Position numbers and translations under genes: made by a program | Virus record (IMG/VR): IMGVR_UViG_3300008255_000098 | DNA length: 64,000 nucleotides | Origin: a virus | Lineage: Duplodnaviria > Caudoviricetes | Strand: one strand, 5' to 3' | In this document: one piece after another, positions 16,637-62,260 of the stretch | Layout of the letters: each line of letters starts with the position of its first letter | Numbering within the stretch: position 1 is the stretch's first letter | The notes under the pieces: model-generated | Told to the model about the DNA's origin: nothing | What the model saw: only the letters and a program-made list of their open reading frames with translations | Databases searched by the model: none

Positions 16637-16846
16637 CTATTCTTTTTCTTTCTTATTTTTATCTGTTCCATACGTGTAATCCAAATAAAATAATAAACCA
16701 GCAGGTTTTGACATAGGTTGCACGACAATTAGGTCCCTCACTAATTGCGAAGGGAAAATTCGTCTTTTCCGACCTGAACACATATAAAATATTGTTTTCC
16801 TTCGGCGATATATTTGAATTGAATCTCTAATGTTTTTAATATTCAT
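16637..16846 (-). CDS. 69-aa protein carrying a T4 gp23-type major capsid (Gol-region) segment
   Basis: Strong SD (AAAGGAG) just upstream of ATG; RRIFPSQLVRDLIVVQPMSKPAGLLFYLDYTYG matches the gp23-family VQPM..P.G motif without gaps. Confidence 0.8.
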   Translation of the reverse strand: MNIKNIRDSIQIYRRRKTIFYMCSGRKRRIFPSQLVRDLIVVQPMSKPAGLLFYLDYTYGTDKNKKEKE

Positions 16847-22020: not shown

Positions 22021-23697
22021 TCAAATTTCTTGACTCTCATCTATAACTTTAAGCATAGGAGCTGTTAGTAATGAAGCATTGTCATTTTTTTCAATCCAAT
22101 TAATGTCTCCGATTGGTTCTACCCGATATACCCTAACGCTTTCTACTGATTCACTATTATTTCTAGCTGTATTGCTATTCATAGCAATTATAAGTTGTTT
22201 GCCAGAGTTGGATTTGATATAATCTCCAGAGCCGTATTCTTCAGCAGTAGCGTAATAAAATGGTTGGTTGATGGCTTCTAAATCTACCTCTACCCCTTTC
22301 GAATAATCTTTACGATATCTATTCACACCCATTATTGGACCCTCATAAAAAATATCTGATAATCGTGTATTGCGGAAAATTATATTTTCTCTTTCAAAAT
22401 TTTCTTTAACTAAGCTCGGGTCTATATGTAGTTTATTGAGTTTTTGTAACATTGAAAAGTTATTTTTAGCAGTTGCATAATAAACAAAGTTTAACCATGG
22501 GCGTTTAACTTCTTCTTCTTCGCCATCTCCGCTAGACATAAAACTTATAGACCCCCCTGCACGGGAAGAATCAAAGCTACAATCATCATCTTTTGTTTGT
22601 GTTTTTGGATTTTCTATATCGTCTAATGGTTTTTTAGAAATATCACTTCTATTTTTGTAATAATATTCCCAAACATTTGAAGCATCTGGAGAAACAGAAT
22701 CTCTATCTGCTGTCACTCCGTGATTTCCAGCTACTTCAATAGCAACGTCATATAATAATGGTCCATAACCTTTTGTAGCCTCAGATTGAAAAATAATATA
22801 TGCGCCAAGACACCCAGTCTTTGCTAGTTTCATTTCCACATAACCTTCAACTCCAGAAGAGTTTTCTGTATATTTTACAACAACATTACCCATATACGGT
22901 TCTATGGAAACACCAACATCTTCTGGAAGAGAACTTGGATTTCTAGCTGCTTCTACAAAAAACATTTCTCTTAAAGAATGTTTTTTCTTCCTGCGTTTCT
23001 TATGTTTTTTAATAAATCCTGGGACTCCGGGATCTCTAGTTGGCTTTCCTTTGGAATCTCTATTGTATAAATTGTCTGGTAGAGAACCGCCTAATTGAAA
23101 ATATGAAAGTCCACCATTTGAACCAATATATTCTTCTTCAAGCTCTTTACCTTCGGATAGATTACAAGGTAGAAATACAGCAATGTTGTTTTTGACATTT
23201 GTTATTGCCTTTATTCTATTAGAATCAACTCCTCGTTTCTCAAGGTGTTTTATAATATCTTTTGGTGTTTCTGTTTCTTCAAAAAATAATTTTTCCAAAG
23301 AATGTTTTTTACTTTCAAAGTTATATTCGTAGTCATCTGGTTTGTCAATTACATAAGCTTTAGCATATTTTTTACCAGAAATTTTCTGTTGTGAAAGTCT
23401 GTGGTGTCCATCTTGTATATACATGTTCCCGTTTGCAGTTCTAACAATAATCGGGAATTTTGTTTTCGGGACCCATTCACCGCTGTTGTGCTTTTTGATT
23501 GTACCTGTAGAAACAAATTTTTGTGTTGCTAATAGTTTTGGGTCATTTAGATTTATAGTTATAACTTTACCAGTTTTGTATAATGGGTCCATTTTTGTTA
23601 CGGAAACTCCCCACATATCTTCATCCTCAGGCGGGGGATTATAAATATTAAATGGAACTTCTATTTCGTCTTTAGTTTTTTTAGTTCTATAACCCAT
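22021..23697 (-). CDS. Multi-domain protein: ParB/Srx-like, GNAT-like and ART-like modules
   Basis: PIIVR...IQDGHHRL (ParB-like); GYGPLLYDVAIE...DRDSVSPDASNVW (GNAT-like); FYYAT...VRVYRVEPIGD (Arr-like). Modules are separated by repeated KKHSL.E.FF.E. Confidence 0.6.
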   Translation of the reverse strand: MGYRTKKTKDEIEVPFNIYNPPPEDEDMWGVSVTKMDPLYKTGKVITINLNDPKLLATQKFVSTGTIKKHNSGEWVPKTKFPIIVRTANGNMYIQDGHHRLSQQKISGKKYAKAYVIDKPDDYEYNFESKKHSLEKLFFEETETPKDIIKHLEKRGVDSNRIKAITNVKNNIAVFLPCNLSEGKELEEEYIGSNGGLSYFQLGGSLPDNLYNRDSKGKPTRDPGVPGFIKKHKKRRKKKHSLREMFFVEAARNPSSLPEDVGVSIEPYMGNVVVKYTENSSGVEGYVEMKLAKTGCLGAYIIFQSEATKGYGPLLYDVAIEVAGNHGVTADRDSVSPDASNVWEYYYKNRSDISKKPLDDIENPKTQTKDDDCSFDSSRAGGSISFMSSGDGEEEEVKRPWLNFVYYATAKNNFSMLQKLNKLHIDPSLVKENFERENIIFRNTRLSDIFYEGPIMGVNRYRKDYSKGVEVDLEAINQPFYYATAEEYGSGDYIKSNSGKQLIIAMNSNTARNNSESVESVRVYRVEPIGDINWIEKNDNASLLTAPMLKVIDESQEI

Positions 23698-23714: not shown

Positions 23715-24527
23715 TTATTTTTCTTCGTCATTGCCTGACCATAAAATATCATATTGACCAGACATATCTCCACCAAGAGGGTTACCTCCCGTGCCAGAAA
23801 TTTTGCCAGAAGACTGCACCGCCCCTGTACCTACACCAATAGCACTAATTTCGTTTATCTTACTAAAATCAGAAATTATTTCTTCCAACTCTTTAATAGA
23901 TTTTTCTGGCGATGTATGTAAAATAGTTGTACCCCCATTTGCAATAAATTTATTCACAAATTTTAGTCTATCATCAATTAGAATATCATACCTGCTATTA
24001 GCAAATTTCTCTTTGTTTTGCGTGCAATAAAAGTTATTGTACATCCCTTTAAAGTTTTTATCAGCCCACTCATGTTTTTCCTTTTCGCAGGTTGGATTAG
24101 AGTCTATTGGGGCAGTTAAAATATTAGGTAGCTTTCCAGTAAAATTTTTAGCAGCATTGAGCATATTTTTAGCTCCTGGTAAAACCTCTAACCCTATAAA
24201 AAATCCTGGCTGCGAAGCAAAAGAATAAGTAAGCCCTCTGTATTTATTCCAAGCTTTTTTAAGCTTTGCCATTACTGGATCTTTTTGTTGACCTCTAAAT
24301 TTTTCTCTTAGTTCATCTGTCGGCAAACCCTGTAAATCAGGAACTTGTGAAAACAATTCATCAAGTTCTTTTTTAGAATTTTCTACTATCTTATTATGTA
24401 CAAGTCCACCATGAAAATCTGCTAATACTCCATCCATATCAAAATAAACTGTTATTTCTGGTTTTTCTAAAGAACTAAGTTCGTTTTCTACTAATAGTTT
24501 AATTAAGTTTTTAATTTTGTGTGTCAT
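23715..24527 (-). CDS. HAD-superfamily 5'(3')-deoxyribonucleotidase-like with leader and Gly-rich tail
   Basis: VYFDMDGVLADF, ILTAP, EKHEW, ILIDDR. Confidence 0.85.
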   Translation of the reverse strand: MTHKIKNLIKLLVENELSSLEKPEITVYFDMDGVLADFHGGLVHNKIVENSKKELDELFSQVPDLQGLPTDELREKFRGQQKDPVMAKLKKAWNKYRGLTYSFASQPGFFIGLEVLPGAKNMLNAAKNFTGKLPNILTAPIDSNPTCEKEKHEWADKNFKGMYNNFYCTQNKEKFANSRYDILIDDRLKFVNKFIANGGTTILHTSPEKSIKELEEIISDFSKINEISAIGVGTGAVQSSGKISGTGGNPLGGDMSGQYDILWSGNDEEK

Positions 24528-25507
24528 CCGTACTCGTGCTTTGTTTGAAGTTTTATTTGTATTTCTTTAAACTTATTTATATCTATGAACCTAATATCGT
24601 ATCGGCTATCTAATTTATAATCAAATACTGATTTAATTATTGGTATAGAGGAATGCATTCCAGCGGTAAGTAAGTTTGTAGGAATTTCTTTTCCAGTTTT
24701 TGGTGTGCCGCCGTTTTTAAGTATTATTTGTGCTTCCCTGGGAAAACTTTCAAGTGGCGTCTCTACGGCCACTAGAAGCCTAGATTTAGTAGGAATTACT
24801 AAACGGGAGGAACTTATAACCCACTCACCTTCAGACTTATAAGTATGTATTCCTTTTAGAACCGAGTATTTTATCAAATTTTGAAATGTTCTTGGATTAA
24901 TAGAGGAGATGTCTTCTGCCGTTGTGTTTTTTAAAATTTCTTCCCAAAAATACTTCGTTAAATCTTCTAGAGAGTTTATTTCGACTTCTCCATTTTCATA
25001 TCTTTTATTTATATCATAAGATGACACATAACCATCACGCATAAGTGACCCAAGATGTCTAACGCCATCATCATTTGAAGTAAGAGCACTCCTATATATT
25101 TCTCTAAAAATATTGTCTATTATTTTTCTATTTCCTTTGACGCCTTGGTCAGCGTTGAAAATTCTACGCAGCATAGCCATATTTTTATTAGTTAGCTGCT
25201 CGATATTATCATATTCAACACGTCTAAGATTTCCTTCATTCACCGATAAAGTATTTTTAGCGTTCATTACTACAACTGCGTTTCTAAATCCAATACCGAG
25301 CCAGTGCATCAAAATTCTATTATTATCTGAGATACCAGATATCCCTTCAAGCACACCTGCGGACAAATCTTTAAGATTCTTATCTGCGGTTGGGGAAACA
25401 GAGGTAATCAGCCAAAATACATTAGGATTTCCAGAAGTAGAACGTACCTCGTGTAAAACATCTTTTGTATAAATGTCAATTATAAATTTTAATTGTCTGG
25501 AAATCAT
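24524..25507 (-). CDS. Hypothetical protein (paralog of 25504-26496)
   Basis: Shares VFW.TS, WLGI.RNAV.V, YDN, YKSEGEW.I and SRY...FI with the neighbour. Confidence 0.8.
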   Translation of the reverse strand: MISRQLKFIIDIYTKDVLHEVRSTSGNPNVFWLITSVSPTADKNLKDLSAGVLEGISGISDNNRILMHWLGIGFRNAVVVMNAKNTLSVNEGNLRRVEYDNIEQLTNKNMAMLRRIFNADQGVKGNRKIIDNIFREIYRSALTSNDDGVRHLGSLMRDGYVSSYDINKRYENGEVEINSLEDLTKYFWEEILKNTTAEDISSINPRTFQNLIKYSVLKGIHTYKSEGEWVISSSRLVIPTKSRLLVAVETPLESFPREAQIILKNGGTPKTGKEIPTNLLTAGMHSSIPIIKSVFDYKLDSRYDIRFIDINKFKEIQIKLQTKHEYG

Positions 25508-26496
25508 AAAAGTTTTTCATGATACTTTTCACGATACTTTTCAAATTTTTCCATTGAGATAAAGTTAACTTGATATCGACTGGATAAATTATACTTATTA
25601 GTAAGCTCTATTAGCCTGAGCGCACGTTTTTCGGTTTGTAATTTTGGTGGATCTGGCCAGGCACCTTGTTTAGGAACTTGTGTGTATTCTTGTCGTGCTT
25701 GGTTAGAAATGGACTTTGGGTCAACGTCAAGAGCGATAAATATAGTACTTCCATTTGGGATTTCCATAGTATCCCCCTTTATCATCCACTCACCTTCAGA
25801 TTTATAAATTTCTCCTATGCGCTTTAGTGCCATGACAATTAAGTTTTCCCACACACTAGTTGGGAAATCCTTAGCTTCTTCTACAAGCCATTTTCCTTTA
25901 TTCTCGGCAATTTTAATAGTTGTTTTTTGTACCCAAGCTGCTAATTCTTTTATAGAATTTATATTTGGTTTTTCGTCTTTGTAGGCAGACCCGTATAAAG
26001 TGGCTGCCAACGTTCCATACTCAATATAATACAAAATAGTGGCAACAGATTTACTAGGTGGTTTTGATTGTTTGCCAGCCCACTGGACATAACCCATTAC
26101 AGTTTGCATTAAACCAAACCAATCATAATCTCGTTCTGGCGAGCGATCAAACAATCTAAAAAGTGTTGTCATGTTTTTTGAAACAAGATAATGTGGGTTA
26201 TCGTACATTATTCTGCTAACATTATTCAGTTTTAAGAATTTCTTAGCCGGGATGACTATAACAGCATTTCTAGCGATACCTAGCCACTGAGTTACAATTT
26301 CTTTCGTTCCAGATATACCTTTAACTCCTTTTAGTTTTCCAGTAGAGATCTGTTCTAAGAATTTTTCTGAGTGTTCATCTATAGAAGTCACCATCCAAAA
26401 AACAGTTGGAATGTCTTTTTGTGTGTAGGATACCTCAATTAGAACTTTTTCTAATTCAGAATTTATTAATTTTTGTAAAACTTTCATTTTACTCAA
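25504..26496 (-). CDS. Hypothetical protein (paralog of 24524-25507)
   Basis: Same shared motifs as 24524-25507; coupled by overlap. Confidence 0.8.
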   Translation of the reverse strand: MSKMKVLQKLINSELEKVLIEVSYTQKDIPTVFWMVTSIDEHSEKFLEQISTGKLKGVKGISGTKEIVTQWLGIARNAVIVIPAKKFLKLNNVSRIMYDNPHYLVSKNMTTLFRLFDRSPERDYDWFGLMQTVMGYVQWAGKQSKPPSKSVATILYYIEYGTLAATLYGSAYKDEKPNINSIKELAAWVQKTTIKIAENKGKWLVEEAKDFPTSVWENLIVMALKRIGEIYKSEGEWMIKGDTMEIPNGSTIFIALDVDPKSISNQARQEYTQVPKQGAWPDPPKLQTEKRALRLIELTNKYNLSSRYQVNFISMEKFEKYREKYHEKLL

Positions 26497-26514
26497 TCAT
26501 TGTCCATTTGTTGT

Positions 26515-27174
26515 TTAAAAATATCCATAATCTACCAATACTACATTTCCGTTTGAGGTTATTCCCCAGTGGTCGAGCCTGTCAATGTCGGCGACACCTA
26601 ATTTTGTTAAGTCGTATATCCCTTTTAAAAGTTGCATGTCAAACTTATTTAAATCTTCAACTTCTATTTTTTTATTCGTTCCAACATAAATCTCATCTTC
26701 GAACCATAAATTCCTATGGTTGATTGTTTCTTTGATGGCATCGCTAAGATTATTAGTATGTTCTATTTTAGGAATAAAATCATCTATAATTTGTGTGTCG
26801 ATAGTTAGTTTTGAATATGCTTGTTTGTTGTCTATAAACACCTGAACCGCCTCAGAAATTATCCAAAAGTAATTGTCTGCAAAATCATATATTTTTGCTA
26901 AATATTTCTTGGGAATAGTGCTGTTTGTATATACAGATACTTCTTGTTTATTTTGTAACCAACGACTCGGAATCTGCACTTTCAGTACTTTACCTGAACC
27001 GAGAGCGAAGACTCTTCTTGTACTGCCAGAGCCTAATTCAATTAAATGTTTTTCAGCGTATTCATTTATCTCTTTTATAGTTTTAAGACTTTTCAGAACT
27101 TTAAAACTAAAGCCTCTATAACTCTCTAAAAGTATATTGTTGACCTCTTCATTTATTATATCAAGTATATTCAT
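26515..27174 (-). CDS. Protein kinase-like (phage Ser/Thr kinase fold)
   Basis: LGSGSTRRVF (Gly loop), VLKV, NKQEV, D..DHWG, VLVDYG. Start placed at MNILD (27174), 1 nt after the upstream stop, rather than the track's 27213. Confidence 0.75.
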   Translation of the reverse strand: MNILDIINEEVNNILLESYRGFSFKVLKSLKTIKEINEYAEKHLIELGSGSTRRVFALGSGKVLKVQIPSRWLQNKQEVSVYTNSTIPKKYLAKIYDFADNYFWIISEAVQVFIDNKQAYSKLTIDTQIIDDFIPKIEHTNNLSDAIKETINHRNLWFEDEIYVGTNKKIEVEDLNKFDMQLLKGIYDLTKLGVADIDRLDHWGITSNGNVVLVDYGYF

Positions 27175-27175
27175 T

Positions 27176-27399
27176 TTATAAATCCCAATAATCTCCACTT
27201 GATTCAAAATCATTTATTTCGTAGACTGCCAATATAGTCCTATCAGAAGAGGTAAACTCATTATGACCATATCTTAAAAGATCACCAAAACCAGCTTTTG
27301 TTGTTTCAAGTACTTTGGTAAATAATTCTAAATCAAGAGACGTAAATTCATTAGTTTTGATATAATCTCTTTTTTTTCCTTTTGTTTAAGAAGTTTCAT
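27176..27399 (-). CDS. Small protein requiring a -1 shift at an A8 run (or frameshifted pseudogene)
   Basis: ATG 27399 gives MKLLKQKEKK then a stop after 23 aa; the -1 frame continues RDYIKTNEFTSLDLELF...GDYWDL* to 27176 (74 aa total). Confidence 0.5.
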
Positions 27400-27485: not shown

Positions 27486-28319
27486 TTACGAACGTAATAA
27501 ACACTGGTTTGTAGTACAAATCTTATGTGTTGGATTTCTGTATTTGTGTAACAACCCCAATAAATCTACACTGGACGCAGCATACCCAATATAAGTGGCA
27601 TTCTGTATAAACGACGTGGTAACGCCAACGATTTCCCCACGGTCATTGAATAATGGTCCTCCAGATGCACCATGAGTTACGTTTGCTTGGTGAACCACCT
27701 CAGAGTGTCCGTTTGCAAGTCTTCTAATTGAGGAAACTATTCCTTGTGTAAATAACCAGAGTTCTCCTGCTGGCATCCCAATCTCATATACACGAGAACC
27801 AACTGTCGGTAGCGTGTCTGAAACTCTAAAAAAATGTTCTGAAGAACGTTCAGTACTAATAAGTTCAATTAGAGCAATATCTCTACCTGTGTCAAACTGA
27901 ACAACTTTTGTTTGGTGAATTGTAACTGCCAGAGTTTCAGCGCCACTTTCTATAGAATCATTATATTCCTGATGATTTACAATAAGAATTTCTCTTCCTA
28001 ATTCTGAAACACTTTCTACTGGCACGCTTTCTGCTGGCATTTCTATGCTTATGCCTGGAGCAACTTGCACTATATGTGTAGTAGGCGGAACTACACAATG
28101 ATTTGCAGTAGCTAAAATTCTCGGACTAATATAAAATGCAGTGCAAATCGGACTAAATAAACCAGAAGGCCCTTGCATTACAATTGCAGCAGTTGAATTT
28201 AGTGTGTCATTAATCATTACTGAAGAGTCAGTAAGGTGTCCACTATAAGCTGGACCTTGTACTTGACAACCAAACAAAGCAAAAACAACAAGTGCTATAA
28301 TTTTATTGTTGCTGCGCAT
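27486..28319 (-). CDS. Trypsin-like serine protease, predicted lipoprotein
   Basis: Lipobox-like LFGC; catalytic TANHC, DIALI, GASGGP. Confidence 0.9.
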   Translation of the reverse strand: MRSNNKIIALVVFALFGCQVQGPAYSGHLTDSSVMINDTLNSTAAIVMQGPSGLFSPICTAFYISPRILATANHCVVPPTTHIVQVAPGISIEMPAESVPVESVSELGREILIVNHQEYNDSIESGAETLAVTIHQTKVVQFDTGRDIALIELISTERSSEHFFRVSDTLPTVGSRVYEIGMPAGELWLFTQGIVSSIRRLANGHSEVVHQANVTHGASGGPLFNDRGEIVGVTTSFIQNATYIGYAASSVDLLGLLHKYRNPTHKICTTNQCLLRS

Positions 28320-28322
28320 TTG

Positions 28323-29207
28323 CTATCCCAGAGTTCCAATTTGTGCTAAGTTATCTAAACTTCTACTAGTTTCTAGTATCCTTATCAGAGTTTGAATATA
28401 ACTAATCGGCTTCGCTTCACCCACTACTGTTCCAGATCTATTGCTACTCCACCCAGCAGAATGAATTCCAACAATACGTCCTCTAAAATCCATAATAGGT
28501 GAACCAGAAGACCCTGGGCCAGTTCTCACCTGGTGTAAAATATCTATACTGTTGTTTCCTCTAATTTGAATTCTTGAGATAATACCATTTGTCAAAACCC
28601 AAATTTGTCCCACAGGCATTCCTATTGAATATGCTTCTTCGCCTGGCCTAAGAGGTTCTCTCTCAAGATTCCTCATGACCAGCCAATTCGGAGAAGGAGT
28701 TTGTCTATCTTTCAACTCTAATAAAGCAACATCGTGGTTATTTTCAGTATCTATTTCTACGACTGTAGCTGTCATATATTCAGGGTTGTTATGCTCTGTT
28801 GCGTTTGCAACCCTAGACCAATCATCATATTGATGGAAAGTCACAAATTGAATTTCATCCCCAACCGGGGAAGTTGTTCCAGGGAGACTAAGAGAAACCC
28901 CAGGTGCAACCTCAACAGTTTCTTCATGTACAACACAATGTGCGGCTGTGACTAATAGTTTTGGGCTAACAAAAGAAGCGGTACAATACGGTCCACGCAT
29001 TCCACCATTACCCACCTCAACCATGGCCACTACTGAATTATAGATGTCATCTAAGTGATCCGTGTTGCCTGGGATGTGCAGAGGTGGCATCGCCCCTCCG
29101 CAACTTACTATCAACGACGCAGTTATAGCAATTACAAATATCCAAATATTTTTAAAATTCATCCCAAATAACCTTCTATTTTCAATATGCGCACAAGTCG
29201 TACACAT
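28323..29207 (-). CDS. Trypsin-like serine protease, predicted lipoprotein
   Basis: Lipobox-like IVSC; catalytic TAAHC, DVALL, GSSGSP. Confidence 0.9.
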   Translation of the reverse strand: MCTTCAHIENRRLFGMNFKNIWIFVIAITASLIVSCGGAMPPLHIPGNTDHLDDIYNSVVAMVEVGNGGMRGPYCTASFVSPKLLVTAAHCVVHEETVEVAPGVSLSLPGTTSPVGDEIQFVTFHQYDDWSRVANATEHNNPEYMTATVVEIDTENNHDVALLELKDRQTPSPNWLVMRNLEREPLRPGEEAYSIGMPVGQIWVLTNGIISRIQIRGNNSIDILHQVRTGPGSSGSPIMDFRGRIVGIHSAGWSSNRSGTVVGEAKPISYIQTLIRILETSRSLDNLAQIGTLG

Positions 29208-31874: not shown

Positions 31875-34319
31875 TTATATGTTATTCTGCATTTCTCGCA
31901 ATTTCTTTCTAACAAAAGAATGTTCATCTTCGCTTATAGTACTTGTGTACTCACTTACTTCTTGGTCAGTAAGAATCCTAAGTTTAGATTTTGCAGTATC
32001 TAAATGAATCTGATATTTGATTCCATCAATACCTGCTCTGTTTTTAGCTATAAAAATGTTGCCAAATCCTGTTGCCTTGTTTGCAGATTTACGTAAAAGG
32101 CCTACAACAAAATCAGCCACGTGCGCTTGTCCGTACCCTTCAGCCATGTTTGTTAAATCAACAACGTCACTGTTAGCACCTTCTTTATTAGACTGAATCG
32201 CAGTCCAAATTGGAACATCAAGTTCGGTAGCTAATGCTCGCAACTCTTCCATAACCTTCTTCAATTCCAGTCTTAAAAGTTCATAACGGTCAGATGAACG
32301 CATAATACCAGCATAATCTACTAGAATTATATTTGGTACAAAGCCTTGTGTCGAAAGTTTGTCAATGTGGCCTCTAAGAGTCATAGCTGAGGCACTCGCA
32401 GTTGGGTAGTACTTGATCCTGAGTCTTCCAAGATTTTCTTTGTTTTCTTGGTAATATGTTTTGATTTCTTCTTTACAATCAAAACATTCGAGACTAGGAA
32501 TATCCATAATATGTGAGTCATATCTAATACCCATTGCTCTTTCGTTGAGTTCAAATGTGTAATGTAAAACATTACGTTTATGCAATAATGCCTGAGCACC
32601 CACATGAACTAAAAAGTGTGATTTTCCACAATTATGATGAACTATGAAATCTCCCGTTAGATATAAATGATCGCCTGTTAAAGTAAACCCGTAAAAATCA
32701 TCTTGTTCAAGAGCTTCAATTTCAAACCCGATGCGAGAAACATCTTTAATTTGACATCGTGGTTTTGCTTGTTTTCTTGCAAGACGTGTTGGTACAATTG
32801 ACGTTTCACCAAAAATTGTTACAGCATAGCACGTTCCAGAATAATTATTTTGACAACTTTTACTTGTCTTTTCGCTATAAGAAGCTAAACCTAAGCTTTT
32901 ACTTAAAAAGACAATATCATCAGCTAGTTGTTTGGATTTTGTTATATGACAAAAACACTTATTATTCAAATAACCACATGCGTCCAATAAGCCAGCAAGC
33001 ATTTCCAATCTATTTTTTCTGGAAGCAACTTTGTATTGTTGTGGAATAAATTTGTTCCCACCCTTCTTGCCCGCCAACCCAAGTTCGGACAAAATCTTTA
33101 CTATAGAATTGTTGTGTTTATAACCATTTGTAATGTAGTAGCCAGCTGTTTTATTCCCTTCTTTAGGGAGGCTTGAAATTCTAAACCCTGCGTTTGGAGC
33201 GAATTGCTGCCATTCATTTAAAATTTCCTCATCAGCTGTCGTTAGTTCAACTCTGTTTTTGTTGATAAAATCGCCGCCCAATAATGTTCCCAAAAGGTAC
33301 GGAGGAATTGGCAATTTTGTCTGGTATGTTTCTTCAAAAGACACACCTTTTGTGTATAACTTATATTGGTGTTTGAACGTTTTGCTCTTGTCTAAATAGT
33401 CTTTAACAGAAATGTTAATAACTTCGCCGTTCTTTTTTGGGTTTCTACTTTTGCACCCAAGATTTGTTCTCTGCAAAGAAAGAATATGATTTTCGTTGAC
33501 AACAAACGAGTCTCCCTTATTGGGAGTAATTTTGTACATGTTTTCTTTTCCACGTACTAATTTTAATACCCTTCTTGGTTTACTGTCCGACCCCATTATT
33601 AGGTCGCCGACTTGAATATCTTCAATTTTTTCCAAAGTCCCGTTATAGGTGAGAATTTCTGTACCTTTTGCATGACACCCAGTTGGAGCAATACACACTC
33701 CAAGTTCTCCAGCGCCAAGTCCACCGTTCAAGATTTTTCTTTGGTCTAATTCAGGAATACCAGTTGGTACTGTTTTTCGTGCTGTCTCAGAATATCTACT
33801 TTCAACATCTTCAAAAAGATCTAATCCCGGAGAATGATGATTCCCCGCATTAATTGCGGTTTTAACAACATCAATTACTTTGTCATATTTTTCTGATTCA
33901 ATTAGACCGACACTATCCATAAGCGCCTGGTGCAATCTTCTTCTTTTACAGAAGTCTAATGCTTTTTCTTTAACATGCGGTAAATCACCTAGGTCTTGGT
34001 TTGTGGCAACCTTTTTAAGAAAGGTTTTAATTTGGTCTAAAAGAAGCTTATCGTTCTGATTTTTCAATTCAGTTTTAAGCATTGTGATCAGCAACTCTGT
34101 TGATGGAAACTCCTTATATTTCCTATAATAGGACAAATAGGTTGAGGTTACCAACTTCAAATAACTAAATTGAAAAAAATCAATGTCGATAACTTCATTT
34201 AATTGTGAAGCCCACTGTCTGTCCATTATTAGGGCTTGGACTATTTTCTCTTGGAAAGATTTATCAAATGAAAAATGTGTAGGTTGTTGTTGTTGTTGTT
34301 CTGTCATTTCTTCTTGCAT
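31875..34319 (-). CDS. dnaB: Replicative DNA helicase (DnaB/gp41-like) with intein
   Basis: GLGAGELGV.IAPTG|intein|CGKS Walker A, ILVDYAGIM, WTAIQSNK, KNRAG. Confidence 0.92.
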   Translation of the reverse strand: MQEEMTEQQQQQPTHFSFDKSFQEKIVQALIMDRQWASQLNEVIDIDFFQFSYLKLVTSTYLSYYRKYKEFPSTELLITMLKTELKNQNDKLLLDQIKTFLKKVATNQDLGDLPHVKEKALDFCKRRRLHQALMDSVGLIESEKYDKVIDVVKTAINAGNHHSPGLDLFEDVESRYSETARKTVPTGIPELDQRKILNGGLGAGELGVCIAPTGCHAKGTEILTYNGTLEKIEDIQVGDLIMGSDSKPRRVLKLVRGKENMYKITPNKGDSFVVNENHILSLQRTNLGCKSRNPKKNGEVINISVKDYLDKSKTFKHQYKLYTKGVSFEETYQTKLPIPPYLLGTLLGGDFINKNRVELTTADEEILNEWQQFAPNAGFRISSLPKEGNKTAGYYITNGYKHNNSIVKILSELGLAGKKGGNKFIPQQYKVASRKNRLEMLAGLLDACGYLNNKCFCHITKSKQLADDIVFLSKSLGLASYSEKTSKSCQNNYSGTCYAVTIFGETSIVPTRLARKQAKPRCQIKDVSRIGFEIEALEQDDFYGFTLTGDHLYLTGDFIVHHNCGKSHFLVHVGAQALLHKRNVLHYTFELNERAMGIRYDSHIMDIPSLECFDCKEEIKTYYQENKENLGRLRIKYYPTASASAMTLRGHIDKLSTQGFVPNIILVDYAGIMRSSDRYELLRLELKKVMEELRALATELDVPIWTAIQSNKEGANSDVVDLTNMAEGYGQAHVADFVVGLLRKSANKATGFGNIFIAKNRAGIDGIKYQIHLDTAKSKLRILTDQEVSEYTSTISEDEHSFVRKKLREMQNNI
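32631..33677 (-). mobile_element. Intein (349 aa) with LAGLIDADG-type endonuclease domain in the helicase P-loop
   Basis: N-terminal CHAKGT, block B HILSL, C-terminal FYGFTL...VHHN followed by Cys+1; LAGLIDADG-like YLLGTLLGGD and LAGLLDACG. Confidence 0.92.
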
Positions 34320-60658: not shown

Positions 60659-62260
60659 ATGTTTATGGAAAAAAATAAAATCGAAATTTTAGTAGAAGAA
60701 GTCGTTGACGACCTATTAGCGAAAAAACTCGTAAAGAAGAAATCTAAACGTAAAAAAATCGATAAATTATCATATGAATACGTATATTATCTTAAAAGGA
60801 AAGACCCGGCTCTTTTTGAATTATTAGCGGCACAAGCGAGATTCATAATTGCTGCTGTTGAGAATGGCTACTCTCCAAAGGATAAAATTATATCACTTAA
60901 TAAATTCCTAAAAATGGATAAAAAGTTAGATCCAAGAGACAGTGCTGATACCCATGGGGTAAAGTTAGTTTTAGATTATCTTGTTAGACAGCAAAAGATT
61001 AAAGATCCTGGAGAATTTGCAGGTAAGACAAAACGTTGGTATCAGGCAGCACTCGATGCTGTTTTGAGAGCTACATATGAAAAAAAACCAATCAAGGTTT
61101 CCAAGGAACAAGTTACATATAATAAAAAAAAGTTAAATGAATCGAGTGCAGTTCATAAATCATTTTATTTGGATTTGCCAGACGATCTACTAAGGGTGTC
61201 AGACATTTTTAAAAGCCATGGATACCAACTGTTTGTTGTTGGTGGCGCTGTTAGAGATGCTCTTATAGGAAAAGCACCAAAAGACTATGACCTTGCTACA
61301 AATGCAAAACCAGATGAAATTTTACAAATGTTCAATGGGGCTCCTGGCTTCCGCACATTAGAAGTTGGAAAAGCTTTTGGAGTTATTAATGTTTATACAA
61401 AAGAAAATAATGAATATGAAATTGCCACTTTTAGACGAGATTTAAGTGCCGGTCGTCGCCCCGATGCCGTTGAATTTACGACAATTGAAAATGATGTACA
61501 GCGCAGAGACCTAAGTATAAATGCACTGTTTTATGATATTCAGAAACAAGAAATTGTAGATTTTGTTGGTGGAATTGAAGATCTTAAAAACGGAATTGTT
61601 AAATCTGTTGGAGACCCAAAAGAACGGTTTGCGGAAGACCGACTGAGAATATTACGTGCCCTTCGTTTTGCTGCTCGCATGGGAACAGAGTTAGACACAA
61701 ATACTAGAAATGCAATTCTTGAAGATAACTCTTTATCTGGAGTTTCTCCAGAGAGGATTAGAGATGAGTTTTTGAAAAGTATTAAAAGTGCCAAATCGGT
61801 TGTTTCCTTGATGAAACTTTATGATACATTTGATTTATGGCCACAGGTTTTTCCTAATTTAAGAATAAATAAAGATTATCCAGAAACAAAAAATATACCT
61901 GTGCTTTTAGCTTTATTGTTACGAGAAAACAATCCTAAAAATTTAGGTAAAAACTTAAATAAGTTAGTGTATAGTGTTGTTGAAACAAAACAAGTGGTAT
62001 TTTTAGTTATGTTTCAAGAAATATCGCTCACTAATGCTTATCAACTTAAAAAGTTATTTTCTTCTACAAGACTTACAAACTCAGACCTTCTGGAATTTGG
62101 GGAAGAAAATAAAAATATTGATATGAAATTAGTAAGTGCTTTTACAAAATATGATCTATCTGTCAGTGGACAAGATTTATTAGATTTAGGACTTAAAGGT
62201 AGAGAACTAGGCCAAGAACTAGAACGTCGTGAAAACTCTTTATTTATGGATTTGGTATGA
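60659..62260 (+). CDS. cca: tRNA nucleotidyltransferase (class II CCA-adding/poly(A) polymerase family) with ~160-aa N-terminal extension
   Basis: VGGAVRD.L.G..PKDYDLAT, EIATFR, RRDLSINAL, EDRLRILRALRFAAR, SPERIRDEF. Confidence 0.92.
   Translation: MFMEKNKIEILVEEVVDDLLAKKLVKKKSKRKKIDKLSYEYVYYLKRKDPALFELLAAQARFIIAAVENGYSPKDKIISLNKFLKMDKKLDPRDSADTHGVKLVLDYLVRQQKIKDPGEFAGKTKRWYQAALDAVLRATYEKKPIKVSKEQVTYNKKKLNESSAVHKSFYLDLPDDLLRVSDIFKSHGYQLFVVGGAVRDALIGKAPKDYDLATNAKPDEILQMFNGAPGFRTLEVGKAFGVINVYTKENNEYEIATFRRDLSAGRRPDAVEFTTIENDVQRRDLSINALFYDIQKQEIVDFVGGIEDLKNGIVKSVGDPKERFAEDRLRILRALRFAARMGTELDTNTRNAILEDNSLSGVSPERIRDEFLKSIKSAKSVVSLMKLYDTFDLWPQVFPNLRINKDYPETKNIPVLLALLLRENNPKNLGKNLNKLVYSVVETKQVVFLVMFQEISLTNAYQLKKLFSSTRLTNSDLLEFGEENKNIDMKLVSAFTKYDLSVSGQDLLDLGLKGRELGQELERRENSLFMDLV

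What the first reader, a model, noticed from the sequence alone, without database searches (positions are those of the whole stretch)
22021..23697. 558-aa 'polyprotein' with repeated linker motifs between unrelated effector-like domains
Seen: the motif KKHSLEKLFFEE (about 23275-23310) recurs as KKHSLREMFFVE (about 22948-22987), sharing the DNA repeat AAGAATGTTTTTT, and a third similar RLSDIFYE precedes the last domain. The segments between them resemble ParB/Srx (DGHHR), a low-complexity unit, a GNAT-like domain (GYGPLLYD...VW) and an Arr-type ADP-ribosyltransferase-like domain (FYYAT...VYRVEPIGD, with the catalytic His apparently replaced). Known: T4-type prohead proteases cut after Glu in hydrophobic-x-E contexts. 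Inference: a capsid-packaged precursor cut into several ejected host-takeover proteins.
Basis: partly seen in the sequence, partly recalled or inferred. Interest (0 to 1): 0.7.

Follow-up and report, generated by a model that had tools for sequence, protein, structure and literature searches.

The report
Fused phage cargo proteins with cleavage-type leaders
This gene of an uncultured T4-like jumbo phage fuses several small enzyme-like proteins, each still preceded by the short leader that relatives put at the start of separate proteins. The leader looks like the T4 signal for loading a protein into the capsid and cutting it after a glutamate, so the product is probably a capsid-loaded protein that is cut into pieces, which remains untested.

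Summary
ORF 22021-23697 (minus strand, 558 aa) has three confidently folded domains: ParB/Srx-like, GNAT-fold, and a degenerate Arr-like ADP-ribosyltransferase with its catalytic His lost. Between them lie a Toprim stub and a conserved about 55-aa linker. The repeated motifs fall in the low-confidence gaps between domains.

- **The ORF is a fusion.** In relatives, gene boundaries fall exactly at these motifs.
- **The leader is a generic N-terminal tag.** A 14-18 aa amphipathic leader ending in (L/I)-x-Glu starts 111 of 118 non-redundant tagged proteins in related phage loci. These fall into 50 unrelated clusters, with no hits in shuffled controls.
- **It resembles known T4 propeptides.** These are gp24, gp23 and IPII/III, and it also resembles the predicted maturation junction of this phage's own capsid protein.
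- **A gp21-type protease is common in relatives.** It is present in 11 of 14 near-complete related genomes.

The capsid-packaged, protease-processed reading is therefore plausible (about 0.5) but unproven:
- I found no protease gene in the 62% of this genome I could read.
- P0001 has Phe, not Leu/Ile, at P3.
- P0001 has no leader at its own N-terminus.

Earlier notes of this scan had already proposed the same leader system elsewhere on this genome. I class this as a new variant of a known kind.

The parts
22021..23697 (-). Whole ORF, 558 aa (P0001): fused multi-cassette protein
   Evidence: The identical protein is called on 9 contigs from JGI, Logan and ENA samples, so it is not an assembly artefact.
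23311..23697 (-). aa 1-129: ParB/Srx-like domain with the invariant IQDGHHRL motif
   Evidence: pLDDT is 92-98 for aa 10-128. Foldseek hits sulfiredoxin, ParB, Noc and KorB at probability 0.96-1.0. ParBc_2 is below threshold in 4 of 7 homologs.
23275..23310 (-). aa 130-141, KKHSLEKLFFEE: leader-type motif 1. In relatives this is the N-terminus of the Toprim cassette.
   Evidence: It lies in the pLDDT<50 segment 129-142. P0002 starts M-SYSLKEIFF... aligned to q132. The L090 gene 9218-10138 starts at this point.
23155..23274 (-). aa 142-181: remnant of the first about 40 residues of a Toprim_2 cassette. The catalytic domain is deleted.
   Evidence: It matches P0002 aa 3-53 at 47% identity, after which about 310 residues of P0002 are missing. 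P0002 carries PF13155.
22987..23154 (-). aa 182-237: conserved linker module (..EEYIG..GG..YFQ.GGSLPD.LYN....GKPTRDPG..G) followed by a Lys-rich run
   Evidence: It is found in 16 proteins next to different domains and is often the C-terminal end of a separate gene. It is 60-77% identical where the enzyme domains are not. The model shows a small beta-hairpin at pLDDT 45-68.
22951..22986 (-). aa 238-249, KKHSLREMFFVE: leader-type motif 2. It ends in the family-invariant Glu249.
   Evidence: Glu is invariant in alignment A1. P0004 and P0016 start M-[RK]YSL[KR][EK]IFL.E-AA here. In L089 a gene boundary (GTGA overlap) falls exactly here.
22402..22950 (-). aa 250-432: GNAT-fold domain of a large phage-only family without a Pfam model
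   Evidence: 1670 representative clusters match, with no Pfam or PDB sequence hit. The AF2 model has pLDDT 85.9. The top 50 VIA hits are all GNAT, Z 5.6-7.7.
22342..22365 (-). aa 445-452, RLSDIFYE: leader-type motif 3, before the last domain
   Evidence: It lies in the pLDDT<50 segment 437-475. It is conserved in P0002, P0018, P0030 and P0032 ahead of the Arr-like module. The stand-alone protein P0015 begins 4 residues after this Glu.
22024..22341 (-). aa 453-558: degenerate Arr-type ADP-ribosyltransferase-like domain (core aa 476-558)
   Evidence: PF12120 hits 8 of 11 homologous modules but not this one. Arr structures match by profile and by fold. FYHGT reads FYYAT and 13 residues are deleted.
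23715..24527 (-). Context: upstream NT5C-type nucleotidase gene with an added N-terminal leader (MTHKIKNLIKLLVENE) and a C-terminal tail related to the capsid-protein junction motif. In relatives it is fused to the same modules.
   Evidence: Pfam NT5C. N-terminus. P0011 and P0018 are NT5C fusions. Tail motif family.
24524..27213 (-). Context: three more genes of the same operon-like run with leader-like N-termini (327 aa, 330 aa, 232 aa)
   Evidence: N-termini. The L089 homolog starts VGNQLADLVSLLVEQTIVE. The syntenic variable locus between the trypsin-like genes and ThyX appears in L001, L089 and L090.

Best explanation
P0001 is a fusion of at least three 'cargo cassettes' that relatives encode as separate genes: (1) a ParB/Srx-like domain, (2) a Toprim cassette, now only a stub, plus the conserved linker, and (3) a GNAT-fold domain plus an Arr-like domain. 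Each cassette keeps its short amphipathic leader ending in hydrophobic-x-Glu.

In this clade of large T4-like phages that leader is a generic N-terminal tag. It most likely works like the T4 capsid targeting sequence: it docks the protein to the scaffolding core of the prohead, and the gp21-type prohead protease removes it by cutting after the Glu. On this reading P0001 is loaded into the prohead and cut after Glu141, near Glu188/189, after Glu249 and after Glu452. That would release a ParB/Srx-like protein, a basic linker peptide, a GNAT-fold acyltransferase-like protein and a probably inactive Arr-like domain, which leave the capsid with the DNA.

Shown here: the architecture, fusion at the motifs, the generic nature and consensus of the leader, its likeness to T4 propeptides, and the protease in related genomes. 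Inferred: packaging, cleavage at the internal copies, ejection, and the enzymatic roles.
For: 1. Structure. The full-length AF2 model has three confident cores (aa 10-128, 250-436, 476-558) and a pTM of 0.44. The pLDDT<50 gaps at 129-142, 228-239 and 437-475 hold or directly adjoin the motifs.
2. Fusion at the motifs. Homology breakpoints against 40 or more homologs cluster at q130-132, q181-186, q238-239 and q445-456. In L089 one gene ends with the linker module plus KKKKKK-stop, and the next starts V-RYSLKEIFLQE-AAKGP. In L090 the next gene starts at the Toprim leader.
3. A generic leader. A leader HMM gives 139 hits of 10 bits or more in 1277 ORFs of IMG/VR loci, against 0 in shuffles. Of 118 non-redundant hits, 111 have Met at the motif start. 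Up to 13 tagged genes sit in one locus, and the post-leader parts fall into 50 clusters unrelated by BLAST.
4. Consensus. P3 is Leu (97) or Ile (14) and P1 is Glu in all 111. This matches T4 gp24 MAKINELLRE|S, gp23 ..GSFLTE|AEIGG and IPII/III MKTYQEFIAE|A, read from AF158101. The CTS and cleavage after Glu are described in PMC9026906 and PMC5694885.
5. The capsid protein. This phage's own capsid protein reads ..VVELLRE|TNALSTGGAG.., aligning within 2 residues of T4's E65|A66. A junction-like motif recurs 11 times in cargo proteins of this locus family, against 0.04 expected (post hoc pattern).
6. Retention. The leader is kept in many independent internal fusions.
7. Protease. Peptidase_S77 (gp21 type) is present in 4 of 4 and then 20 of 44 related records, which is 11 of 14 records that are at least 80% complete.
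8. Precedent. T4 Alt is a capsid-packaged, gp21-processed ADP-ribosyltransferase.
Against: - There are no proteomic or biochemical data, and the phage is uncultured.
- I found no S77 homolog in contig positions 3350-127991 of the 201 kb contig; the remaining 38% could not be read.
- P0001's three motifs have Phe at P3, whereas the generic leader has Leu or Ile in 111 of 111 cases.
- P0001 has no leader at its own N-terminus, and T4's CTS has only been shown to work N-terminally.
- In phages studied by mass spectrometry, prohead-protease cuts produce N-terminal (or C-terminal) propeptides, not several mature products (PMC10052503).
- For the GNAT-fold family the leader could simply be the domain's first helix; it is modelled as a helix at pLDDT 61-70.
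- The Phi-x-Glu site on its own is too short to be specific.
Confidence: 0.5

Rival explanations
1. P0001 is an uncleaved multidomain 'polyvalent protein' in the sense of Iyer et al. 2017. The cassettes were fused by loss of gene boundaries. The internal leaders are relics or flexible helical spacers, and the protein acts, packaged or not, as a single polypeptide.
For: The fusion origin is shown. Homolog P0008 carries the precomputed Pfam families PF18760 (which I recall as the ART-PolyVal domain) and PF12120. The polyvalent-protein paper notes that some such proteins, such as N4 vRNAP and ArdC, are transferred unprocessed. P3 is Phe rather than Leu/Ile. There is no leader at the N-terminus. 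A Toprim stub and an Arr-like domain without its His point to decay after fusion.
Against: The internal leader and its Glu are kept in many independent fusions at 30-45% identity. The linker elements are more conserved than the enzyme domains, which is not expected of relics.
Confidence: 0.3
2. The leader is a real shared N-terminal module with a role other than capsid loading. Candidates are docking to another phage assembly or chaperone, or a conserved 5' gene segment that promotes cassette recombination. P0001's motifs would then mark recombination joints only.
For: The exact 13-14 nt DNA repeat at both motifs and the cassette insertion at the motif fit recombination at leaders. Tandem arrays of leader-bearing genes would favour shuffling. 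No direct evidence links the leader to the capsid.
Against: Conservation is at the protein level across very different codons and leader flavours. The strict L/I-x-E ending, the likeness to T4 gp24 and gp23 sites, and the copy of the capsid-protein junction are specific to prohead-protease substrates.
Confidence: 0.15
3. The long ORF is an assembly or sequencing artefact that joins neighbouring genes.
For: Relatives have gene boundaries in A-rich Lys-codon runs, where single-base errors could fuse frames.
Against: The identical 558-aa product is called on 9 contigs from independent samples and assemblers. Fused arrangements of the same junction also occur in P0002, P0003, P0005 and P0011.
Confidence: 0.02

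Closest known systems
T4 capsid targeting sequence (CTS) on internal proteins IPI-III, and the gp21-processed propeptides of gp24, gp23 and Alt
   Same: A short N-terminal amphipathic peptide sits on unrelated, rapidly shuffled proteins and ends in (L/I)-x-Glu. The leader's end (..IRELLTE|A) is close to T4 gp24 (..INELLRE|S). The phage is T4-like (gp23-type capsid protein, gp17-type terminase), and relatives encode a gp21-type protease. T4 Alt is a packaged ADP-ribosyltransferase.
   Different: The leader is longer (14-18 aa against 10). It is used on far more families (50 or more clusters near the sampled genes). In P0001 it occurs three times inside one polypeptide, with Phe at P3 and none at the N-terminus. 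Nothing has been tested experimentally.
Polyvalent proteins of phages and conjugative elements (Iyer, Burroughs, Anand, de Souza, Aravind 2017, PMC5512222)
   Same: Several conflict-type domains (ParB-like, ART, acyltransferase, primase-type) sit in one phage polypeptide with extensive domain shuffling, and delivery with the DNA is proposed.
   Different: I saw no MuF, zincin or other autopeptidase domain. Here the units are joined by a repeated leader and linker pattern that also heads stand-alone genes, which points to processing in trans by the prohead protease.
Inner-body and ejection proteins of phiKZ-like phages (phiKZ, 201phi2-1, SPN3US) cut by gp21-like proteases
   Same: Many head-internal proteins are cut after Glu at a three-residue motif by a distant gp21 homolog, sometimes at several sites.
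   Different: Their motif is A/S/G-x-E, their propeptides are often longer than 100 aa, and the reported cuts remove propeptides and do not separate several mature enzymes (PMC5694885, PMC10052503).
Arr rifampin ADP-ribosyltransferase (PF12120; PDB 2hw2, 9iaf, 9iba)
   Same: The C-terminal domain shares the fold and profile similarity. Full versions in homologs keep FYHGT and the downstream ..VFFT.. segment of the Arr-like module.
   Different: P0001's copy has FYYAT and a 13-residue deletion, so it is probably not an active transferase.

Membership tests
T4-type CTS / gp21-processed head cargo | A short (10-20 aa) N-terminal propeptide shared by otherwise unrelated proteins | tested here: met
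   Of 118 non-redundant leader hits, 111 start at Met, and they head 50 unrelated clusters; shuffled controls give 0 hits. Neighbouring window genes carry it too. In P0001 itself the copies are internal.
T4-type CTS / gp21-processed head cargo | The propeptide ends in (L/I)-x-Glu, the gp21 cleavage motif | tested here: inconclusive
   The generic leader has L or I at P3 and E at P1 in 111 of 111 cases. P0001's three motifs read F-E-E, F-V-E and F-Y-E, so P3 is Phe. Close relatives have L at P3 in motif 2.
T4-type CTS / gp21-processed head cargo | The phage encodes a gp21-type (Peptidase_S77) prohead protease | tested here: inconclusive
   It is present in 11 of 14 related records that are at least 80% complete. 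I did not find it in the 124.6 kb of this genome's 201 kb contig that I could read; the rest is unread.
T4-type CTS / gp21-processed head cargo | The protein is present in virions with the propeptide removed | not testable with these tools
   The phage is uncultured and no proteome is available.
Polyvalent proteins (Iyer et al. 2017) | Two or more conflict-type effector domains in one polypeptide of a phage or conjugative element, with mosaic architectures among homologs | tested here: met
   ParB/Srx, GNAT-fold and Arr-like domains are present. Architectures are shuffled in P0002-P0032.
Polyvalent proteins (Iyer et al. 2017) | Association with MuF, zincin or other in-cis peptidase or signature LPD domains | tested here: not met
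   P0001 has no such Pfam hit. One A1 member has a weak LPD16 hit at E 0.062.
ParB/Srx superfamily | ParB/Srx fold with the conserved Gly-x-x-Arg type pocket (here DGHHR) | tested here: met
   Foldseek hits sulfiredoxin and ParB at probability 0.96-1.0. DGHHR is invariant in 7 homologs. Pfam ParBc_2 reaches only 14.6-17.4 bits, below its 23.6 cut-off.
GNAT acyl-CoA N-acyltransferases | GNAT fold | tested here: met
   All 50 best VIA-align hits are GNAT-type, Z 5.6-7.7, 82-134 residues aligned. Foldseek is weak, at probability 0.5-0.75.
GNAT acyl-CoA N-acyltransferases | Sequence membership (Pfam Acetyltransf models) and acyl-CoA binding | tested here: inconclusive
   None of the 58 family members has a Pfam GNAT hit. 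A G-x-G-P motif (GYGPLLYD) lies where motif A is expected. Cofactor binding was not tested.
Arr-ms (PF12120) ADP-ribosyltransferase | Conserved H-G-T motif with the catalytic His | tested here: not met
   FYHGT in 7 homologs reads FYYAT in P0001, P0002 and P0015, with a 13-residue deletion. P0001's module gets no PF12120 hit. That this His is catalytic in Arr is from my own knowledge.
Toprim_2 (PF13155) primase-type domain | Toprim catalytic domain present | tested here: not met
   Only residues matching P0002 aa 3-53 remain; about 310 residues are missing.

The most novel reading that the evidence does not exclude
A dsDNA phage uses a true polyprotein strategy inside its capsid. One gene product carrying three to four internal capsid-targeting and cleavage leaders would be loaded into the prohead and cut by the head-maturation protease into several distinct mature proteins for injection. 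The strongly conserved linker elements (the GGSLPD..GKPTRDPG module, the Lys-rich run, the RWY motif) would be additional packaging or ejection signals. More broadly, this leader would mark a very large, unrecognised repertoire of injected proteins (dozens of families per genome) in abundant uncultured T4-like jumbo phages.
Probability: 0.35. Interest if true: 0.78.

Novelty: new variant of a known kind. Interest (0 to 1): 0.62.

Why it matters
If the leader is a capsid-loading and cleavage tag, a 14-residue sequence signature would identify the injected-protein arsenal of a very large group of uncultured marine and groundwater T4-like phages. The GNAT-fold family alone has 1670 clusters at 50% identity and no member in 50,697 GenBank phage records. 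It would also show that such cargo can be delivered as a polyprotein. The tag could be tested directly, and possibly reused for loading foreign proteins into capsids as the T4 CTS already is. The work also gives a fold (GNAT) to a large phage-only family that has no Pfam model.

Tried and rejected
- **GenBank phages.** tblastn and megablast of P0001, the locus, and a stand-alone GNAT-fold member (P0092) against the collection found no match. IMG/VR does not hold P0001 itself.
- **Pfam, PHROGs and PDB sequence searches.** These gave nothing above threshold for P0001 or the GNAT-fold family.
- **The prohead protease of this genome.** No whole genome is held. I walked the 201 kb contig with exact-protein look-ups and reached positions 3350-127991. 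This showed the sheath, small leader-bearing head proteins, the scaffold (766 aa, ending RWQLLAGIKK) and the capsid protein, but no S77 hit. The walk to the right ended at a contig end.
- **Co-variation test.** I looked for co-variation between leader flavour and the end of the capsid-protein delta domain across genomes. The delta-domain end (LLENQ...LLRE) is conserved whatever the leader flavour, so the test was uninformative.
- **T4 late promoter.** TATAAATA is not enriched: 8 found against 9 expected.
- **Trypsin-like neighbours.** I rejected the two genes at 27486-29207 as the processing enzymes because both have lipoprotein-type signal sequences.
- **First leader PSSM.** An ungapped PSSM failed on P0001's motifs because they are one helical turn shorter than the common leader.
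- **Literature search.** Searching for the leader strings found no paper.
Full report
**What the window is.** The window is part of a large phage genome. It carries a DnaE-type polymerase, ribonucleotide reductase, an intein-bearing DnaB, ThyX, a UvsX-like recombinase and a T4-type large terminase. The terminase's nearest cultured relatives are Flavobacterium phage immuto and Microcystis phage Mel-JY01, at 37-38% identity, followed by T4-like cyanophages. By exact-protein look-ups I placed the window at about positions 63992-127991 of a 201,145 bp ENA metagenome contig. Upstream I read a tail sheath gene, a 766-aa acidic scaffold-like protein and a Gp23-family major capsid protein. The phage is therefore an uncultured, distant T4-like jumbo phage.

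**Check of the observation.** ORF 22021-23697 (minus strand) encodes 558 aa, named P0001. The two 12-mers KKHSLEKLFFEE (aa 130-141) and KKHSLREMFFVE (aa 238-249) are the best internal self-match, at 8 of 12 residues. Only 4 of 500 shuffles reach that score. RLSDIFYE is aa 445-452. The identical protein is called on 9 contigs from independent samples, so the ORF is real.

**Domains.**
- *Overall model.* A full-length AlphaFold2 model built on a 60-row alignment has mean pLDDT 79.7 and pTM 0.44. It shows three confident cores (aa 10-128, 250-436, 476-558) and low-confidence gaps at 129-142, 169-187, 228-239 and 437-475. Motif 1 and motif 3 lie inside gaps. Motif 2 follows directly after the 228-239 gap as a helix of modest confidence. 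The refutation criterion 'domain boundaries do not coincide with the motifs' is therefore not met.
- *ParB/Srx and Arr.* Foldseek with this model returns only sulfiredoxin/ParB-family chains and Arr among its 50 best rows, at probability 0.80-1.0.
- *N-terminal domain.* It has an invariant IQDGHHRL motif and sub-threshold ParBc_2 hits.
- *Central domain.* Modelled alone (pLDDT 85.9, pTM 0.81), its 50 best VIA-align matches are all GNAT-type acyltransferases, Z 5.6-7.7. It belongs to a phage-only family of 1670 representative clusters with no Pfam or PDB sequence match.
- *C-terminal module.* Its homologs hit Pfam Arr-ms in 8 of 11 cases and Arr structures by profile. In P0001, P0002 and P0015 the conserved FYHGT reads FYYAT and 13 residues are missing, so this copy is probably catalytically dead.
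- *The stretch between motifs 1 and 2.* It is not simply low complexity. It comprises the first about 40 residues of a Toprim cassette (P0002 aa 3-53, with about 310 residues deleted), then a conserved module of about 55 aa, then a Lys-rich run.

**The protein is a fusion, joined at the motifs.**
- BLAST breakpoints against more than 40 homologs cluster at q130-132, q181-186, q238-239, q432 and q445-456.
- P0002 and the 306-aa gene of L090 begin with the motif-1 leader of the Toprim cassette. P0004 and P0016 begin M-[RK]YSL[KR][EK]IFL.E-AA, which is motif 2.
- In the syntenic locus of a relative (L089), a 440-aa gene ends with the linker module plus KKKKKK-stop. The next gene starts, with a 4-nt overlap, at V-RYSLKEIFLQE-AAKGP, exactly where P0001 runs on in frame.
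- ParB-first relatives (P0012, P0019) go straight from a motif-1-like sequence into the linker module. The Toprim stub of P0001 therefore looks like a cassette inserted at the motif and then largely deleted.
- The whole locus, between two trypsin-like genes/NT5C and ThyX, is variable among relatives.

**The motif is a generic N-terminal leader.**
- Stand-alone members of the GNAT-fold family start with M-x-L-L-[RF]-E-[YN]-[IW]-R-x-x-L-x-E, with the Glu invariant.
- An HMM of this leader, run on 1277 ORFs (298 k residues) of 78 IMG/VR loci, gave 139 hits of 10 bits or more and none in shuffled sequences.
- Of 118 non-redundant hits, 111 have Met at the motif start. Up to 13 tagged genes lie in one locus. 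The sequences after the leader fall into 50 clusters unrelated by BLAST.
- In all 111 scored leaders, P3 is Leu (97) or Ile (14) and P1 is Glu.
- In the window, the four genes upstream of P0001 also begin with leader-like helices: an NT5C nucleotidase, two paralogs of 327 and 330 aa, and a 232-aa protein. Several small proteins next to the scaffold gene do the same.
- P0001's motifs are a version of the leader one helical turn shorter.
- Internal copies are rare (7 of 118), but they are retained in many independent fusions.

**Why a prohead-protease and capsid-targeting role is the best reading.**
- From the T4 record I read IPII/III MKTYQEFIAE|A, gp24 MAKINELLRE|S, gp23 ..GSFLTE|AEIGG and Alt MELITELFDE...
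- The leader's end (..IRELLTE|A) is nearly the gp24 propeptide.
- This phage's own capsid protein reads ..LLENQVVELLRE|TNALSTGGAGLSSSGKVAG.., and that junction aligns within two residues of T4's E65|A66.
- A pattern describing this junction occurs 12 times in 145 k residues against 0.04 expected. One occurrence is the capsid protein. The other 11 are all in cargo proteins of this locus family. For example, P0030 has ..RELEE|VMAISTGGAGLTSSGQISG. I wrote the pattern after seeing examples, so the statistic is post hoc. A related sequence also forms the C-terminal tail of the window's NT5C protein.
- Peptidase_S77 is present in 4 of 4 and then 20 of 44 related IMG/VR records, which is 11 of 14 records that are at least 80% complete.
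- T4 Alt gives a precedent for a packaged, gp21-processed ADP-ribosyltransferase.

**What remains open or argues against.**
- Nothing shows packaging or cleavage.
- I found no S77 homolog in positions 3350-127991 of this genome's contig, and 38% is unread.
- P0001's three sites have Phe at P3, and P0001 itself starts without a leader.
- In phages studied by mass spectrometry, cuts yield propeptides and not several mature enzymes (PMC10052503).
- For the GNAT-fold family alone, the leader could be read as the domain's first helix.

I therefore put about 0.95 on 'fusion of leader-plus-domain cassettes', about 0.6 on 'the leader is a capsid-targeting and cleavage tag', and about 0.5 on the full statement including cleavage at the internal copies. 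The main rival, at 0.3, is an uncleaved polyvalent protein in the sense of Iyer et al. 2017 (PMC5512222).

**Relation to earlier notes of this scan.** After forming the reading above, I found that earlier AI notes on this same genome propose a capsid-loading leader system and another tagged polyprotein. They agree with my reading but are not independent evidence. I re-derived the leader evidence here from other genomes, and I confirmed the scaffold C-terminus they mention.

**Verdict.** This is a new variant of the T4 CTS/internal-protein theme combined with the polyvalent-protein theme: a multi-leader fused cargo protein, embedded in a very widespread, undescribed leader-tag system of uncultured T4-like jumbo phages.

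Noticed in passing
window 23715-24527 (minus strand): The NT5C-type deoxyribonucleotidase has an added leader of about 16 aa before the DMDG motif. Its C-terminal tail (..INE|ISAIGVGTGAVQSSGKISGTGGNPLG..) is related to the predicted maturation junction of the capsid protein. In relatives (P0011, P0018, P0007) NT5C is fused to the same linker and effector modules.
   Followed up: partly
L098 10001-11923 (same genome, about 44 kb before the window) and P0030, P0003, P0016, L089 6682-8004: Cargo proteins carry near copies of the capsid protein's predicted cleavage junction and mature N-terminal arm (..LxE|xNA[LI]S[TA]GG.G..S.G..G). There are 12 occurrences against 0.04 expected, with a pattern defined post hoc.
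   Followed up: partly
   Followed up: partly
L089 7985-8004; L090 9200-9221: In relatives, the gene boundary at the Lys-rich run lies in an A-rich stretch (AAAAAGAAGAAAAAGAAG-TGA), and the next cassette is in the -1 frame with a 4-nt overlap. A -1 ribosomal slip there would yield a fused product like P0001. This is pure speculation and was not tested.
   Followed up: no
P0002, P0004, P0009, P0018, P0019, P0029, P0030, P0032: A further short motif, a Lys-rich run followed by RWY[DEQ], recurs between the linker module and the next leader. Its role is unknown.
   Followed up: no
L083-L086 (S77 proteases of related phages): The gp21-type proteases themselves begin with a leader-like sequence (for example MSDRKLLTEWLAFNYTPEQIKE|S). 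This recalls the possible N-terminal autocleavage site noted for T4 gp21 in PMC9026906.
   Followed up: no
window 27486-28319 and 28323-29207 (minus strand): Two tandem trypsin-like serine protease genes have lipoprotein-type signal sequences (..LFGC.., ..IVSC..). They are conserved next to the variable cargo locus in relatives (L089, L090). They are probably envelope-directed and not the processing protease.
   Followed up: partly
window 16637-16846 (minus strand): A 69-aa mini-gene matches only the conserved ..VQPM..LLFYLDY.. stretch of the major capsid protein (phrog_138, E 1.5e-7). Similar mini-genes are present in L089 and L090. The scan had already noted this.
   Followed up: partly
window 31875-34319 (minus strand): The DnaB-like helicase is interrupted by an intein (Hint plus LAGLIDADG homing endonuclease domains). 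Relatives L089 and L090 have intein-free genes of 469-477 aa.
   Followed up: no
window 60659-62260 (plus strand): The CCA-adding/poly(A) polymerase-family enzyme has an N-terminal extension of about 185 aa that starts with a leader-like helix (..KNKIEILVEEVVDDLL..).
   Followed up: no
L041 152-1444 (IMG/VR): Another clear internal leader without a Met (..STLREYVRELLSE.. at aa 286-298 of a 431-aa ORF). Fused two-cassette proteins therefore occur in other members of the clade too.
   Followed up: no
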